Source: Flavobacteriales bacterium
GTDB lineage: Bacteria; Bacteroidota; Bacteroidia; Palsa-965
Reading direction: 5' to 3'
Length of the DNA stretch: 64,000 nt
NCBI GenBank assembly: GCA_040377305.1
Contig: JBEIPA010000008.1
Location: 128,001 to 192,000 of the forward strand
A model generated the notes under the pieces. The model did no database searches and had not been told where the DNA came from. It saw only the letters and a list, made by a program, of their open reading frames with translations. Positions 11,550 to 18,646 of this stretch are shown here, one piece after another. Both the position numbers and the translations under genes were made by a program. The number at the start of each line of letters is the position of its first letter. The first letter of the stretch is position 1.

Positions 11550-12341
11550 ATGAGTAACACCCGCGTCGCCCTCCGAATTGATGAACCCTGTTCACAGAAA
11601 TGGTCAGAAATGACCCCGACAGAAAAAGCCCGCCCGGATGAAAATCCGTTCGGACGGGGTCGCTTTTGCGATAGCTGTCAGAAAAAAGTTTTTGATGTGA
11701 CCACGCTCACTGACAACGAACTTCTGCAGATGGCGAAAGATAATCCTCATGGTTTTTGCGGACAGTTTCGCAAGGATCAACTGAATCGTGCGATAATAGA
11801 AACACAATTCAAAAACAAATCGCGATTGAATGCATTTGTTGCCGGCGTGTTTGTCGCACTTGGCGCAGGAACTGCTTCTGCACAATCGGCTCCATCGCAT
11901 ACGGTCCAAACACAAGTGATCGATGAAAAGCATCCGACTGGTGCTGTTTGTGTTCGTGATACAACCAATGCTGGTTTGAGCGATGTACAACTCACCGTGA
12001 TCGTTCATGCTGATAGTCTCACAGGTGCACTTTTACAAACAGCACAAGTTTCATTGGAGGGAACAGGCATTTTCGCTTATACAGATTCAACTGGCAAAGC
12101 AGTTCTCACCATTCCGGGTGCGCAGGTTACCGATTCAATGTCCATCCGTGTTGGATACATTGGTTACGCAGACGTATTAGTTGCAGTGTCTCCATCTCAA
12201 ACTCTTCCTGCAATGGAAGTTGCACTTGTAGAACACGAATGGATGATGCTCGGTGGTGCTGTTGCGTACGATTACGAATGGGTCGAACCGAAAAAAGAAG
12301 AAGAAGAAAAGAAGAAATCAATTTTCCGCAAGAATAAATAA
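11550..12341 (+). CDS. Carboxypeptidase-regulatory-like domain protein with N-terminal Cys cluster (paralog 1)
   Basis: PC..W..MTP...GRFCDSCQKKV...CGQF motif, TM segment, TDSTGK...GY beta-sandwich. Confidence 0.8.
   Translation: MSNTRVALRIDEPCSQKWSEMTPTEKARPDENPFGRGRFCDSCQKKVFDVTTLTDNELLQMAKDNPHGFCGQFRKDQLNRAIIETQFKNKSRLNAFVAGVFVALGAGTASAQSAPSHTVQTQVIDEKHPTGAVCVRDTTNAGLSDVQLTVIVHADSLTGALLQTAQVSLEGTGIFAYTDSTGKAVLTIPGAQVTDSMSIRVGYIGYADVLVAVSPSQTLPAMEVALVEHEWMMLGGAVAYDYEWVEPKKEEEEKKKSIFRKNK
11629..11658. mobile_element. 30-bp palindromic in-frame micro-insertion (encodes ARPDENPFGR)
   Basis: CCCGCCCGGATGAAAATCCGTTCGGACGGG hairpin interrupts MTPTEK|GRFC. Confidence 0.65.
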
Positions 12342-12347
12342 CGCAGT

Positions 12348-13097
12348 ATGAGCCGCAAATCGATATCAATCCGCATTGAAAAACCTTGTACAGAAGACTG
12401 GGACAAGATGACGCCAACTGATCACGCCCGCCCGGATGGCTCGGTCGGACGGGGTAAGTTTTGCGCTGCTTGCGAGAAGAACGTAACCGACTTCACCGGC
12501 ATGACCGACAATGAAGTGTTGGAGTTTATCCAACATCACACGGGCAAAATGTGTGGACAGCTACGCGGAAGTCAGCTCAACAGATTGATTGTACAAACAA
12601 AATTGCAAGGGAAGAATTACAGACTCAATGCATTCTTCGCTACACTTCTCTTTGCAGGTGGCGCAGGCTCGTTGGCAGCACAGGACACAATTCCTCCGGC
12701 ACCACGGTACAATCCAACCGTGGTCATCAACGAAAAGCATCCGACTGGTCCGGTCTGCATCAATGTTCCTTCAAAGAAAGTGCAAACCGTACTGAAGGCG
12801 ACAATCATGGATACGGTGATTGGAAAGCACGTTGATTATGCTGTTGTCACTTTGCGTGGAACCAATATTTCCGCCGAGACAGATAACAAAGGGAGATTTG
12901 AAATGATCATTCCGGATTCACTTGCCGGAGATTCAATCGTATTGATGGTTCATGCTCCTGGCTATTTCCGCGAGTGGATAACCATTCCTGCCGGGCAAAT
13001 TGCAAAGACTTCTGTTATAGAAGCTGCGTTCAATGAAATGATCATGAAAGGCGATATGATCATTGAAGAGCGTCCACGGAAATGCGGAAATGATTAA
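12348..13097 (+). CDS. Carboxypeptidase-regulatory-like domain protein with N-terminal Cys cluster (paralog 2)
   Basis: PCTEDWDKMTP...GKFCAACEKNV...CGQL; shares EKHPTG(A/P)VC with paralog 1. Confidence 0.8.
   Translation: MSRKSISIRIEKPCTEDWDKMTPTDHARPDGSVGRGKFCAACEKNVTDFTGMTDNEVLEFIQHHTGKMCGQLRGSQLNRLIVQTKLQGKNYRLNAFFATLLFAGGAGSLAAQDTIPPAPRYNPTVVINEKHPTGPVCINVPSKKVQTVLKATIMDTVIGKHVDYAVVTLRGTNISAETDNKGRFEMIIPDSLAGDSIVLMVHAPGYFREWITIPAGQIAKTSVIEAAFNEMIMKGDMIIEERPRKCGND
12427..12453. mobile_element. 27-bp palindromic in-frame micro-insertion (encodes ARPDGSVGR)
   Basis: CCCGCCCGGATGGCTCGGTCGGACGGG at the homologous codon of paralog 2. Confidence 0.65.
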
Positions 13098-15229: not shown

Positions 15230-16351
15230 TTACTTCCACTGAATCGTAGTCGCAATCGTAAATGCCGCGCCATCGAAGTCGAGACTCAACTGCTCTTCCC
15301 AAATCGGAACAATCGTTTCTACGAGCGCAAATCCACCTGACTGTTTGTGATAAACGTAATAGCGATACGTCGTTGTTGCATTTCCCTCCAATGAAACATA
15401 ACGATAAGTAGCTGCAAATACTTCTACTCCGGGTTGCGATTCAATTTTTCGGAATGTGGTTCCTTCTCTTTCTTTGACATCGAGTGAATCCGAATAAATT
15501 TTGAAGTCATTTCTCGCGGCAATGCTGAAGCTGTCTTCGATCGCAAGGCGCGTGTAGTCGATGTTCACTACATACGGAAATCCTGCAGGCCATACGGTTT
15601 GATGCGTTTCCTTATACTCGTCAACACGCCATCCGAATGGTACGCAAAAGGAATAGCCGTAATCACACGTGTACATCAAGTTAGATTGACCACAACCTTC
15701 GCTGATTACCAATGACGCCGGAACGTATGAAGTAGTTGTGTTCGATTGCTCAATGAACCAGAAGTAATCCATGAAGTAACTTCCTGCAAGATCAACGTGG
15801 ATTCCAACTTCATCACTCAATGGAGCTACATACGGAACCGACAACACAAGTTGTTCGTTAATGGAGAAATCGTATTGATTCGTTTCCATGTTGCGTTCAA
15901 CACGAATGCTGTTCAAACCGTCGCCACTGTAGGCGTAGTTGAATGAATTCGGAGAAACTACAGCGAGCTTTCCTTTCACTTTATTCTCGAAGATGAAACT
16001 ACCGTCGCCATACACAAGAAATGCCATGTATGTTGAGTCATTGTCCGCACGACCCCACACGAGTCCAACGCCTTTGTTAGCTCCTACTCCACTGTCGCGC
16101 TCGATGTTGGTTTCAATCCGGAAATGTTTTTCGAATCCGCCTTTAACAGCGAATGTGTGACGAAAATATCCATCGTTTTTTGATTCGAGGTTGTAACGAC
16201 CGTCTTTAACGTAAACAGTATTTGCGTCGGTTAGGGATTCGGGCCAGCCGTTATCGTTGTTATCGAAGCCGTCGAAGATGTTGCGTTGCGCGTTTAGCGA
16301 CAGCGCACAGCAGATTGAGAGAAACAGCGAGTAGAATTTCAGCACGGTCAA
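15230..16351 (-). CDS. Secreted hypothetical protein (lectin/LamG-like N-domain plus PsbP-like C-domain)
   Basis: Signal peptide; FDGFDNNDNGW...GLVWG...FSINEQLV; YGYSFCVPFGWRV. Confidence 0.6.
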   Translation of the reverse strand: MTVLKFYSLFLSICCALSLNAQRNIFDGFDNNDNGWPESLTDANTVYVKDGRYNLESKNDGYFRHTFAVKGGFEKHFRIETNIERDSGVGANKGVGLVWGRADNDSTYMAFLVYGDGSFIFENKVKGKLAVVSPNSFNYAYSGDGLNSIRVERNMETNQYDFSINEQLVLSVPYVAPLSDEVGIHVDLAGSYFMDYFWFIEQSNTTTSYVPASLVISEGCGQSNLMYTCDYGYSFCVPFGWRVDEYKETHQTVWPAGFPYVVNIDYTRLAIEDSFSIAARNDFKIYSDSLDVKEREGTTFRKIESQPGVEVFAATYRYVSLEGNATTTYRYYVYHKQSGGFALVETIVPIWEEQLSLDFDGAAFTIATTIQWK

Positions 16352-16395: not shown

Positions 16396-16500
16396 AATGC
16401 AACGCGAATTTTGATGCCCAGGGCGTGTTAGTCCTCCTCTCGGATCATCGCGGTAGATAGAAAAACCGGTTATTGGATTTTATGAGATAAACTTGGTTGG
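16396..16500 (-). repeat. Downstream inverted boxed unit of the GxxExxY element
   Basis: Reverse complement reads TATCTCATAAAATCC-N27-TGATCCGAG-N7-CTAACA-N10-ATCAAAATTCGCGTTGCATT. Confidence 0.85.
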
Positions 16501-16502
16501 GC

Positions 16503-16901
16503 TCAAGATGCCTTACGATCATTTTCAAAAATCTTACGTTTGAAACTTGGTTCTTCACCAAAATTCAAGAGCATCCCCACTTCCATTCTTGTCGCTCTCA
16601 AATAATTTAACAATTGGACCTCATTCTCTGGCGCTAATTTGGTTGCCGCTTTCAGTTCAACAATTACCTTTTCTTCAACAACCATGTCAGCGAAATAAAT
16701 TCCTATCTGCTGATCTCTGTAATAAACAGTAATTGGTTCTTGCGTTTTGAACTTAACTTTCATCTTCTGAAGCTCAATTGCCATGGCTTTCTCGTAGTTC
16801 TTTTCAAGAAATCCATATCCCAATTCATTGTAAACGTTGTAATACGCACGCAGAATTTTTCCTGTAACATCGCTGTGTAACATAACATCTGTATTTATCA
16901 T
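16503..16901 (-). CDS. GxxExxY family protein (PD-(D/E)XK nuclease-like)
   Basis: 132 aa; GFLEKNY motif; YFADMVVEEKVIVELKA; QLLNYL...GMLLNFG. Confidence 0.93.
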   Translation of the reverse strand: MINTDVMLHSDVTGKILRAYYNVYNELGYGFLEKNYEKAMAIELQKMKVKFKTQEPITVYYRDQQIGIYFADMVVEEKVIVELKAATKLAPENEVQLLNYLRATRMEVGMLLNFGEEPSFKRKIFENDRKAS

Positions 16902-16911
16902 TCATATAAAA

Positions 16912-17292
16912 CCTAACGAGCCTATCTCATAAAATCCCAAAATCTAAACGAACTATTCACCCTACTGATCCGAGATCACCGCTAACACCAAACACACATC
17001 AAAATCCGCGTTCCATTCATCCTCAACTTTAACAAGCCTATCTCATAAAATCCAATATCCAGCCTTTCAAATTTACCGCACTGATCCGAGCGATAACCTA
17101 ACAATTAACGTATATCAAAATCCGCGTTCCATGTTCACCGCTAACACCAAACACACTTCAAAATCCGCGTTCCATTCATCCTCAACTTTAACAAGCCTAT
17201 CTCATAAAATCCAATATCCAGCCTTTCAAGTTTACCGCACTGATCCGAGCGATAACCTAACAATTAACTTATATCAAAATCCGCGTTCCATT
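16912..17292 (+). repeat. Array of three boxed ~105-bp units plus one partial unit, including a 157-bp tandem duplication
   Basis: Units at ~16912-17017, 17028-17132, 17187-17292; 16976-17132 repeated at 17135-17291 with 3 substitutions. Confidence 0.9.
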
Positions 17293-18369
17293 TCAAAACA
17301 GCGACAACTGCGCAGCCCCAGCCTTCGGATTAAAGTCCTGCGTATTCCAGGGCATGGGATCCTGATTCAACCCAAGACGACTTGCCGTTAGCTTAAACAG
17401 TTTCGCAATACTCTCCGCCATCTGTCCTTCACCAGTCATGCGAACTCCGTAACGCGTGTCGTTGACTTTTCCACCGTGAGCGCCTTCGATGTGATGCAGG
17501 ATTTTTTCAGCACGATCAGGATACGATTTGCGTAACCAGTCGCGGAAGATATCGCCAACTTGTCCGTTGAGACGTACCATCGTGTAGCCAGCGCTCCGAG
17601 CTCCGTTGGCTGCTGCAGTTTCGAGTACTTCCGGAATCTCGTGTGAGTTCAATCCCGGAATAACCGGTCCGAATAAAATTCCGGTTCTGATACCTGCTTC
17701 GGAAAGAATGCGCAATGTCTCAAAACGATTCTTGTATGTAGAAGTTCTCGGCTCGAGTTTCTGACGAACATCTTCATCCATTCCGGTAATGCTGATCATC
17801 ACATGCACGAGATTTTTCTTCGCCATGTCCGCAAGAATATCAATATCGCGACAGATGAGAGAATTCTTCGTGATCATTGCTGCAGGGTGACGAAACTTCA
17901 GCAAAACTTCCAGCATCTTCCGCGTGAGTTGAAGCTTTCGCTCAATGGGTTGATAGCAATCGGTGTTGCCGGAAAACATCATCGGCTCTGCTTTGTGACG
18001 AGGATTGCTGAGCTCTTTCTCGAGCAATTCAAATGCATTCATCTTCACAATCACCTTGCGTTCGAAATCGAGCCCAGCGCTATATCCCCAGAACTCGTGT
18101 GAATTTCTCGCATAACAATACACACACCCGTGCTCACAACCCTGATAAGGATTCAACGACAAGTTCATCAGATCCGGGCTATCGACTTTATTTATAATCG
18201 TCTTTGGAAACGTCTGCAGATACTCCGTCTTGTCATCGAGCAGCATGGGCTCATCAATTACCTCGATGTGCTCCATAACTCGTTGCTGCTTGAAGAAACG
18301 GTTGTTTGGATTTATCTGCGCACCGCGCCCGTGAAATGTTTGATTGTCGTAAATGTTGCTCGCGATCAT
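17293..18369 (-). CDS. PA0069-family radical SAM protein (SplB-like); start uncertain
   Basis: GRGAQINP, NPYQGCEHGCVYCYAR, SGNTDCYQP, QLSLF end. Confidence 0.92.
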   Translation of the reverse strand: MIASNIYDNQTFHGRGAQINPNNRFFKQQRVMEHIEVIDEPMLLDDKTEYLQTFPKTIINKVDSPDLMNLSLNPYQGCEHGCVYCYARNSHEFWGYSAGLDFERKVIVKMNAFELLEKELSNPRHKAEPMMFSGNTDCYQPIERKLQLTRKMLEVLLKFRHPAAMITKNSLICRDIDILADMAKKNLVHVMISITGMDEDVRQKLEPRTSTYKNRFETLRILSEAGIRTGILFGPVIPGLNSHEIPEVLETAAANGARSAGYTMVRLNGQVGDIFRDWLRKSYPDRAEKILHHIEGAHGGKVNDTRYGVRMTGEGQMAESIAKLFKLTASRLGLNQDPMPWNTQDFNPKAGAAQLSLF

Positions 18370-18443
18370 GGCTTTCCCTCTTTTGATCAAAGCTAGAGAG
18401 GCAGGAAGCGGACGGCAAGGTATTTAACGCATAGCTAAATTTT

Positions 18444-18607
18444 TTAGCCAGGATGGCTAACGCTGCAAGGGTTACGCGCGCGCGTACGCGAACCCTGCAG
18501 GAGTTAAACGCTTGCGGGGTTCGAGATTCAGACACGCTCCAAGGGTTAAGCCCTTGAAGGGTTACACGTGCGCGCGAACCCTGCAGGAGTTAAACGCTTG
18601 CAGGGTT
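18444..18607. repeat. Cluster of REP-like palindromes with CG-alternating linkers
   Basis: AACCCTGCAGGAGTTAAACGCTTGC(G/A)GGGTT at 18491-18521 and 18577-18607, each preceded by a decayed ...AAGGGTT palindrome and an ACGCGCG-type linker. Confidence 0.75.
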
Positions 18608-18646
18608 AAAAAAAAGATGCCTTCGTTCTCTCAAACAAAGGCATCA
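18608..18646 (-). terminator. Rho-independent terminator of the choice-of-anchor B gene
   Basis: GATGCCTT...AAGGCATC hairpin followed by a T-run on the minus strand. Confidence 0.6.

What the first reader, a model, noticed from the sequence alone, without database searches (positions are those of the whole stretch)
16396..17292. GxxExxY nuclease-like gene enclosed by ~105-bp inverted boxed units: candidate autonomous element of a non-transposase mobility system
Seen: the 132-aa GxxExxY gene has one unit ending 2 bp from its stop and, inverted, three units starting ~10 bp before its start. Every full unit reads TATCTCATAAAATCC-N27/28-TGATCCGAG-N7-CTAACA-N10-ATCAAAAT(C/T)CGCGTT(C/G)CAT. Boxes and spacer lengths are conserved while spacer sequence differs (AGGAGGA/ATCACCG/CGATAAC; CGCCCTGGGC/CCAAACACAC/ATTAACGTAT). 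The array ends exactly at the TGA of the radical SAM gene. Known: GxxExxY proteins are PD-(D/E)XK-like with no established function. Inference: the units are recognition or cleavage ends, and the protein mobilises itself and related solo repeats, as RAYT does for REP/REPIN but with a different enzyme fold. Alternatively the boxed units yield small structured RNAs.
Basis: partly seen in the sequence, partly recalled or inferred. Interest (0 to 1): 0.85.

Follow-up and report, generated by a model that had tools for sequence, protein, structure and literature searches.

The report
Nuclease gene inside roaming DNA palindrome
A small predicted DNA-cutting gene of unknown function sits in the middle of a ~190-base mirror-image repeat that also occurs about 50 times without the gene, mostly right behind stop codons, and seven of this genome's eight such genes have a repeat family of their own, which suggests that each enzyme likely spreads and maintains its own repeat.

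Summary
Confirmed, and larger than reported. The boxed ~100-bp unit is one arm of a genome-wide family: 151 units in 69 clusters, mostly ~190-bp inverted doublets docked at stop codons. The GxxExxY gene replaces the 10-13-bp centre of one doublet. It has a PD-(D/E)XK fold with invariant catalytic motifs, and it sits at the same site in sister species G015 despite saturated silent sites. Elsewhere, the long arm was found only in G015 among 185,579 species genomes. Seven of eight paralogs have a private dispersed family, and flank sequence tracks protein clade, not genome. Of 31 syntenic G015 sites, 16 lack the element here. A doublet's two arms keep the boxes but mismatch more than random arms, and copies carry species-specific marks even at shared sites. 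Best reading (55%): a REPIN/RAYT-like system run by a hydrolytic nuclease, a fixed gene whose product likely cuts its own boxes so that repair copies or rewrites gene-less doublets. Self-mobility of the gene and small RNAs from single units are unsupported; no activity was tested. Not found in the searched literature. The scan noted the GxxExxY/inverted-repeat link before on other genomes; the long arms, slot turnover and arm mismatch were not in the notes I saw.

The parts
16396..16502 (-). Downstream arm of the doublet (box C 16401-14, CTAACA 16426-31, box B 16439-47, box A 16475-89, inner extension up to the stop)
16503..16901 (-). GxxExxY gene (TIGR04256, PF13366); likely start 16883 (126 aa). 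Predicted PD-(D/E)XK nuclease with D72, E82, K84, Q96, Y100 invariant in 134 of 134 aligned sequences. It occupies the centre of the doublet.
16912..17016 (+). Upstream arm, unit 1; inverted partner of the downstream arm (box A 16923-37, B 16966-74, CTAACA 16982-87, C 16999-17012)
17030..17132 (+). Unit 2, tandem extra arm
17136..17175 (+). Partial unit (CTAACA and box C only), made by the 159-bp duplication
17189..17292 (+). Unit 3, tandem extra arm; its outer end abuts the radical SAM stop codon
16969..17286 (+). Recent 159-bp tandem duplication (16969-17127 / 17128-17286, 96% identical); G015 has one full arm plus a short end piece here
17293..18390 (-). PA0069-family radical SAM gene; host gene on one side of the slot
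15230..16351 (-). 373-aa protein without Pfam/NCBIfam hit; host gene on the other side. It follows the radical SAM gene directly in relatives with an empty site.

Best explanation
The GxxExxY gene fills the centre of one copy of a ~190-bp inverted doublet that occurs about 50 times without a gene, and its predicted nuclease likely recognises the boxes of its own arms and cuts there, so that host repair would copy gene-less doublets into new slots behind stop codons and rewrite old ones. SHOWN: the anatomy; one gene to one repeat family (7 of 8 paralogs); a fixed, purifying-selected gene; gain of gene plus family in a two-species lineage; presence/absence of doublets between the sister species; boxes kept while a doublet's own arms mismatch; species-specific marks at shared sites. 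INFERRED: the protein binds the boxes, probably in the single-stranded hairpin, where the outer stem pairs in 50 of 50 and the inner stem in 45-47 of 50 predicted folds. It nicks by metal-dependent hydrolysis. Because this chemistry leaves no protein-DNA link to rejoin with (established knowledge, recalled), copying would need host recombination or repair rather than true transposition, which fits the missing target duplication. Spacer mismatch would be selected because a perfect ~190-bp palindrome with a 10-bp loop is unstable (recalled). The gene behaves like a domesticated RAYT: it stays put while its repeats turn over.
For: Only this gene fills a doublet centre among 69 clusters. No Y1 transposase gene lies within 2 kb and no four-helix-bundle gene within 6 kb of a unit (0 of 10, 0 of 9). 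The gene-bearing copy has the same unequal pair of inner ends (GGCT[T/C] upstream, AACT[T/C] downstream) that are joined in solo centres. 7 of 8 paralogs have a dispersed family of 12-138 hits, each adjacent only to its own gene, with 0 hits in reversed DNA. 86 of 115 GxxExxY loci in relatives and 48 of 66 in metagenomes have inverted flanks, against 0 of 75 shifted controls. Shared flank 6-mers rise from 0.044 (<40% protein identity) to 0.28 (>=60%) between genomes, and are 0.045 for distant paralogs in one genome; Mantel r 0.446, null maximum 0.061. The doublet pattern is in 2 of 35 genomes of the order, the two with the 79%-identical gene. The radical SAM-373aa junction lacks gene and units in G003, G011, G022, G006, G004, G005. 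16 of 31 syntenic G015 sites lack the element in G000. Arms at shared sites lean to their own species' profile (mean log-odds -4.2 vs +2.0; T after box B in 2 of 26 vs 9 of 27, p 0.04). Own arms match at 0.354 of variable columns vs 0.447 for random arms (0 of 1000 permutations as low). This holds after orienting arm types and is lower in 8 of 8 segments in G015. Fold and motifs are of an intact PD-(D/E)XK nuclease.
Against: No binding, cutting, excision or insertion event was observed; the runs were contigs only. Flanks are physically linked to the gene, so their covariation with protein clade is expected from linkage alone. G015 is also the closest relative (radical SAM 94-95%), so gene-family co-occurrence is a single evolutionary event. 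There is no sign of recent whole-element copying: nearest-neighbour arm identity has median 0.78, and only 2 of 100 arms have a >=90% neighbour. Presence/absence could be loss rather than gain. Boxes kept at shared sites and the docking at stop codons (45 of 60 ends within -4 to 14 nt) fit host selection on RNA equally well. 29 of 115 and 18 of 66 related genes show no significant inverted flank. The species-specific shift is small (0.013 identity). Doublet units score only slightly above non-doublet units (71.3 vs 68.7 bits).
Confidence: 0.55

Rival explanations
1. Host RNA-level element with a passenger gene: the doublets are 3'-UTR hairpins kept by selection on each transcript (stability, termination or translation control, as for E. 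coli REPs). They are spread by another enzyme or by recombination, and the GxxExxY gene was merely captured between two arms or is controlled by them.
For: 45 of 60 ends facing a 3' end lie within -4 to 14 nt of the stop. 17 of 49 doublets are between convergent genes vs 190 of 1381 background gaps (crude ORF calls). Whole doublets fold as RNA (-64.8 vs -40.1 kcal/mol shuffled). 9 of 16 unshared slots hold some other inverted repeat vs 90 of 400 background gaps, as if any hairpin can fill the slot. A 15-nt limit for REP control of translation is stated in passages of 10.1101/2024.07.17.603846.
Against: It does not explain why each paralog has a private family or why flanks follow protein clade. 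Arms are less complementary and fold more weakly than chimeric arm pairs (-64.8 vs -75.9), the opposite of selection for a stem. No other enzyme gene is near a unit. It can be true in addition to the best explanation.
Confidence: 0.17
2. Ssn-like host function: the protein is a site-specific ssDNA nuclease whose job is to cut incoming or recombining DNA bearing its repeat (control of gene transfer). Repeat spread is a by-product or a relic.
For: Precedent: SsnA cuts ssDNA near its NTS repeat, its gene is flanked by the repeat, and it modulates transformation (PMC11893778, abstract and sections 6, 7, 12). The gene here is fixed and under purifying selection. The top Foldseek hit is the Cas4 protein SSO0001 (E 2e-4); that Cas4/RecB-type nucleases act on ssDNA is recalled.
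Against: A different fold (not GIY-YIG). Single arms form no hairpin of their own, unlike NTS. Nothing here bears on transformation. Eight paralogs with separate families look more like competing replicator populations than one filter.
Confidence: 0.15
3. One reading: gene plus arms is an autonomous mobile element that moves itself as a unit and mobilises solos as internal-deletion derivatives.
For: Gene plus arms was gained once at an ancestrally empty junction. Solo centres equal the two gene-side arm ends joined. The family is described as showing multiple transfers (table row in PMC3424549). Paralogs sit at 8 unrelated sites.
Against: One copy only; same site in G015 with saturated silent sites (2-fold sites differ at 0.57, the top of the range 0.16-0.57). 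Other paralogs also keep their sites in G015 or further relatives. No target duplication was seen. The arm pattern had 0 matches in viral contigs.
Confidence: 0.1
4. Each boxed unit is transcribed and processed into a small structured or guide RNA whose variable spacers carry information.
For: Fixed boxes with fixed-length variable spacers, and tandem arrays.
Against: Single units fold no better than shuffles; no Rfam match at E<=1. Spacers are variants of one consensus with recurring words (TAGAAAACAAC in 17 of 100 arms), not foreign sequence. Most units are in inverted doublets, not arrays.
Confidence: 0.03

Closest known systems
REPIN / RAYT systems (PMC3116915; RAREFAN 10.1101/2022.05.22.493013; PMC6006769; passages seen)
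   Same: Extragenic inverted doublets in many copies. A single-copy, vertically kept enzyme gene flanked by the repeat. Several divergent enzyme copies per genome, each with its own repeat population (as stated for Group 3 RAYTs). Confined to one lineage.
   Different: The enzyme is a PD-(D/E)XK nuclease, not an HUH tyrosine transposase. Arms are ~95 bp with three boxes and are not themselves palindromic REPs. REPIN spacers show compensatory pairing, whereas here a doublet's arms are less complementary than random arms. The gene sits in the doublet's centre. No excision intermediate is shown.
Ssn / NTS (SRM) system (PMC11893778; abstract and sections 6, 7, 12 read)
   Same: A small single-domain non-transposase nuclease whose gene is flanked by a cognate repeat dispersed in the genome; the authors themselves draw the IS200/REP parallel.
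   Different: GIY-YIG fold vs PD-(D/E)XK. NTS is a ~30-nt self-hairpin, here a ~190-bp doublet with non-folding single arms. Ssn activity is shown, none is shown here.
GxxExxY / PDDEXK_3 family (TIGR04256, PF13366)
   Same: Full member by both models; function listed as unknown (PMC3424549 table row).
   Different: Usual flanks in this clade are 30-50-nt arrays of short RCGGAT-like units. This subclade has ~100-bp boxed arms that share only the outer GGAACRCGGAT end and, in a ~220-bp subtype, an inner TTCGC-N-GCGAA mini-hairpin (by eye).
MITEs / non-autonomous IS derivatives (recalled)
   Same: Gene-less copies made of the two ends of a gene-bearing copy.
   Different: No DDE or HUH transposase in the element, no target duplication seen, and copies are only ~65% identical.
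Cas4/RecB-type nucleases and Hjc resolvases (fold relatives)
   Same: Core fold; D, ExK and QxxxY motifs (motif names recalled).
   Different: Weak, tied structural scores (Z 6-8, restriction enzymes equally close); no Cas4 Fe-S cysteines; no CRISPR context at this locus.

Membership tests
GxxExxY / PDDEXK_3 | Score above curated cut-offs of TIGR04256 and PF13366 | tested here: met
   131 bits vs 35; 134 bits vs 22
PD-(D/E)XK nuclease | Fold and intact D...ExK catalytic motif | tested here: met
   Model pLDDT 91.8; top matches are PD-(D/E)XK proteins; D72, E82, K84 invariant in 134 of 134
PD-(D/E)XK nuclease | Metal-dependent nuclease activity | not testable with these tools
   needs purified protein
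REPIN/RAYT | Extragenic inverted doublets, over-represented as a unit | tested here: met
   107 of 137 full units are in doublets; 136 of 138 hits outside ORFs
REPIN/RAYT | Doublet can form a hairpin in ssDNA or RNA | tested here: met
   Mean -33.2 vs -16.6 (DNA) and -64.8 vs -40.1 (RNA) kcal/mol against shuffles, 50 doublets
REPIN/RAYT | Compensatory changes keep the two arms paired | tested here: not met
   Own arms less alike than random arms
REPIN/RAYT | Each end holds a short palindromic REP | tested here: not met
   Single arms fold no better than shuffles, 6 of 6
REPIN/RAYT | Associated HUH (Y1) transposase gene within ~200 bp of the repeat | tested here: not met
   0 of 10 Y1_Tnp genes within 2 kb; nearest 2152 bp. 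The assembly has 60 contigs.
REPIN/RAYT | Single-copy, vertically inherited enzyme gene per repeat family | tested here: met
   (two species only)
REPIN/RAYT | Doublets more conserved than singlets | tested here: inconclusive
   71.3 vs 68.7 bits, model seeded mostly on doublet arms
REPIN/RAYT | Excision intermediates in reads | not testable with these tools
   only contigs were available
Ssn/NTS | GIY-YIG nuclease | tested here: not met
   Pfam gives PF13366 only; fold is PD-(D/E)XK
Ssn/NTS | Gene flanked on both sides by its dispersed cognate repeat | tested here: met
Ssn/NTS | Site-specific ssDNA cleavage near the repeat | not testable with these tools
   bench assay needed
IS / MITE pair | Target-site duplication and multiple near-identical copies | tested here: not met
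   None seen at 15 site pairs read by eye; 2 of 100 arms have a >=90% neighbour
Structured ncRNA array | Unit folds or matches an RNA family | tested here: not met

The most novel reading that the evidence does not exclude
GxxExxY proteins are a very large, undescribed class of sequence-specific nucleases that each breed their own repeat population without a transposase. They cut their boxed doublets and let repair copy, invert and rewrite them in place, so that several nuclease-repeat pairs in one genome compete for the same slots behind stop codons. Each gene carries its recognition site in its flanks, which gives thousands of ready-matched 126-aa enzyme/substrate pairs.
Probability: 0.35. 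Interest if true: 0.9.

Novelty: new variant of a known kind. Interest (0 to 1): 0.72.

Why it matters
GxxExxY is a very common family without a known function (6807 of the 8000 candidates scored passed E<=1e-20). This genome gives a direct test: seven paralogs, each with its own predicted substrate, allow a 7x7 cognate/non-cognate binding and cleavage matrix. If confirmed, dispersed bacterial repeats would have a third kind of partner enzyme beside RAYT and Ssn, one that cannot religate DNA by itself, and a source of tiny site-specific nucleases. The arm-mismatch pattern (boxes kept, palindrome broken) also points to which bases an enzyme must read.

Tried and rejected
RAYT or four-helix-bundle gene as partner: none near a unit. 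Small RNA from single units: no fold, no Rfam match. Sigma-70 promoter or intrinsic terminator at the locus: 1 and 0 found vs 2.0 and 1.1 in shuffles (this consensus does not cover all promoter types). Solved homolog by sequence: 0 at E<=1. Arm pattern in viral contigs: 0. Helical periodicity of conservation: no clear 10-11-nt peak; ATCC recurs at alignment columns 16, 49 and 85. Strict two-type (left/right) arm model: significant only for the centre and the segment after CTA. Centre orientation is uncoupled from that segment (0.57 and 0.62), which could mean internal inversions or mosaic copying; undecided. Slot replacement by multicopy families: 10 of 16 vs 760 of 1879 background by 13-mer count, weak; none of the 16 slots matched the six other paralog models that gave hits, though by eye several resemble other repeats of this genome. 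The model for the C53 paralog's 18-nt arm found nothing, although its 16-mers occur up to 21 times. Read joints 16494 to ~16997-17033 were rejected as evidence of excision: they are explained by solo doublets elsewhere. No RNA holder listed. Genomic context of the 12 other close homologs (P0001-P0013 except G015's) could not be obtained, so whether they carry long arms is open. No dimer prediction was obtained. The careful tree did not finish; the quick tree is descriptive only.

Full report
OBSERVATION. The sequence at 16396-17292 is as described: one unit on the minus strand below the gene, three full units on the plus strand above it, spacers 27/28, 7 and 10 nt, and the array ending at the radical SAM stop. 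There is also a partial unit, and units 2-3 come from a 159-bp duplication. The ORF is a GxxExxY protein, probably 126 aa from M7.

THE UNIT IS HALF OF A DISPERSED ELEMENT. A profile seeded on 105 regex-found units gave 151 hits in 69 clusters and 0 in the reversed genome. 46 clusters are simple inverted pairs. 50 of 51 full doublets could be parsed; they span 185-198 bp with box A back to back across a centre of mostly 10-13 nt. The GxxExxY gene lies where that centre would be and is the only gene in such a position; two other short genes lie between two doublets. Solo centres read like the two gene-side arm ends joined. This fits loss of the gene from a full copy, or its capture into a solo; the direction is not shown. 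With crude ORF calls, 45 of 60 doublet ends facing a gene's 3' end lie -4 to 14 nt from the stop (median 5; median 96 to starts). 17 of 49 lie between convergent genes, against 190 of 1381 background gaps.

ONE GENE, ONE FAMILY. The genome has 8 GxxExxY genes. Seven have inverted flanks that beat 200 of 200 shuffles and seed dispersed, almost wholly extragenic families of 12-138 hits, each adjacent only to its own gene. The eighth (18-nt arm; 1 of 200 shuffles as good) gave no model hits. No Y1 transposase (0 of 10) lies within 2 kb and no four-helix-bundle gene (0 of 9) within 6 kb of a unit. In metagenomes I tested 66 of 78 loci (7 fragments not entered, 5 with short flanks skipped): 48 have inverted flanks, 15 also a direct match, and 0 of 75 shifted controls pass. 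Of 116 loci from this genome and relatives (8 own, 28, 80 more of its listed matches), 86 of 115 testable pass. Flank similarity follows protein identity whether or not two genes share a genome (Mantel r 0.446, null max 0.061, 86 loci). Linkage alone predicts part of this; the extra evidence is that the same motifs exist as gene-less copies.

HISTORY. The doublet-centre pattern is in 2 of 27 genomes of the genus and 2 of 35 of the order (several are incomplete; the tallies include the unpublished G012 as one negative). G015 is the closest relative and holds the 79%-identical gene with the same arms between the same neighbours. The junction has neither gene nor units in G003, G011, G022, G006, G004, G005; G007 has a different insert. 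Silent sites of the gene are saturated (4-fold 0.70, 2-fold 0.57; medians 0.59 and 0.34 over 56 gene pairs, a set that includes five GxxExxY pairs) while dN is 0.16. The gene is therefore old at this site and under purifying selection. Of 44 G015 loci, 13 lacked two-sided synteny and were dropped; of 31, 15 are shared and 16 lack the unit in G000. The unshared slots are mostly not empty: 9 of 16 hold another inverted repeat vs 90 of 400 background gaps (shuffle thresholds 100 vs 50), though a 13-mer test was weak (10 of 16 vs 760 of 1879). No target duplication was visible at 15 site pairs. At shared sites arms are barely closer than random (0.64 vs 0.60; 3 of 27 rank first) yet keep their boxes, and they lean to their own species' profile. 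So copies are either rewritten or refilled in place, or selected in place with lineage-specific drift.

AN UNUSUAL CONSTRAINT. A doublet's two arms agree less than arms of different doublets: 0.592 vs 0.646 overall, and 0.354 vs 0.447 at variable columns (0 of 1000 permutations). The spacer word AGAAAACAACG (or close variant) is in exactly one arm in 39 of 50 doublets and in both in 0 (7.6 expected). The deficit persists outside that word after orienting by it (0.364 vs 0.424, 0 of 2000). With anchor-based extraction it holds in 7 of 8 segments in G000 (6 at p<0.05) and 8 of 8 in G015 (6 at p<0.05). Doublets still fold as long interrupted hairpins but more weakly than chimeric arm pairs. This is opposite to the compensatory pairing described for REPINs (PMC3116915 passages). 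I infer selection to keep boxes while avoiding a perfect long palindrome (instability recalled); internal inversions between unlike arms could contribute (undecided).

PROTEIN. The AlphaFold2 model has pLDDT 91.8. Foldseek's best match is the Cas4 protein SSO0001 (E 2e-4), then exonucleases, MGME1, AddAB and Hjc. VIA-align gives tied Z 7-8 for restriction-type and Cas4 folds (BpuSI Z 8.0, rmsd 3.2, 96 aligned), so the superfamily is clear and the subfamily is not. G28, G30, Y36, D72, E82, K84, Q96, Y100 are invariant in 134 sequences.

MECHANISM. Shown and inferred steps are separated in Best explanation. In short: a fixed gene, a cognate boxed repeat, likely cutting, and likely copying or rewriting by host repair. 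A host use of the hairpins in 3' UTRs may explain which copies persist.

LITERATURE. Searches: GxxExxY (3 papers hold it, 2 listed), PDDEXK_3 (1), PF13366 (2), and topic searches. I saw no description of repeats flanking this family. Seen: 10.1101/2021.01.26.428298 one passage; PMC3424549 one table row, function unknown; PMC6006769 passages; PMC11893778 abstract and sections 6, 7, 12; PMC3116915 and 10.1101/2022.05.22.493013 passages; 10.1101/2024.07.17.603846 passages; 10.64898/2026.09.22.753630 abstract, outline and a term search with no GxxE/PDDEXK hit; PMC12085832, PMC9756366, PMC3733652 search listings only. The library lacks most subscription papers and I read no supplements, where the link could be noted. 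Earlier notes of this scan report the GxxExxY/inverted-repeat layout on at least eight other windows; my reading was recorded before I saw them, and they are not independent support.

VERDICT. A real feature. It works like a REPIN/RAYT or Ssn/NTS pair but fails membership in both on the enzyme. It is a new variant of a known kind, with no activity yet shown. Interest 0.72.

Noticed in passing
window 18455-18610: Another dispersed palindromic repeat family (core CCCTGCAGGAGTTAAACGCTTGC, 33 copies in the genome at <=1 mismatch) upstream of the radical SAM gene; nearest Y1 gene is 3 kb from any copy; partner gene unknown.
   Followed up: partly
G000 vs G015, 16 syntenic slots (e.g. G000 C17:92266-92428, C45:214181-214336, C60:20789-20915, C15:29820-30014): The same intergenic slot behind a stop codon holds a different inverted-repeat family in each sister species; this genome carries many such families.
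   Followed up: partly
L202, L194, L190, L207, L191, L211, L199, L227, L229, L230; G000 C52:170158: A ~216-223-bp doublet subtype in which one box A is replaced by GACGCGGAT plus a small TTCGC/ATCGC-N-GCGAA/GCGAT hairpin, resembling flanks of other GxxExxY genes in metagenomes (L137-L148); by eye.
   Followed up: partly
G000 C50:74847-75218; L023, L028, L029, L231: The sister-clade GxxExxY paralog keeps its place behind the same upstream gene (RadA-like 3' end, recalled) in G000, G015, G010, G014 and G007, while its short flanks differ.
   Followed up: partly
L009-L018 (Y1_Tnp genes of G000): Several subclass-1.2-like and other Y1 genes are flanked by their own palindromes (e.g. C46:1073, C52:172669, C49:214544), and a motif CCGTTTACAAACGTTT (30 copies) lies upstream of both Y1 and GxxExxY genes; a shared regulator site is possible.
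   Followed up: no
window 11550-13097: Two tandem paralogous ORFs (263 and 249 aa) with a Cys-rich N-terminal motif; the 249-aa one had no Pfam hit.
   Followed up: no
G000 C60:124379-124756 and C45:174125-174472: Short genes enclosed between two complete doublets (outer ends facing), a composite-element-like layout.
   Followed up: no
window 17230-17269: Run X3 has a contig (depth 2.9) with 3 substitutions and a 1-nt gap in unit 3, one of which makes it match unit 2; possible conversion within the array, low depth.
   Followed up: no
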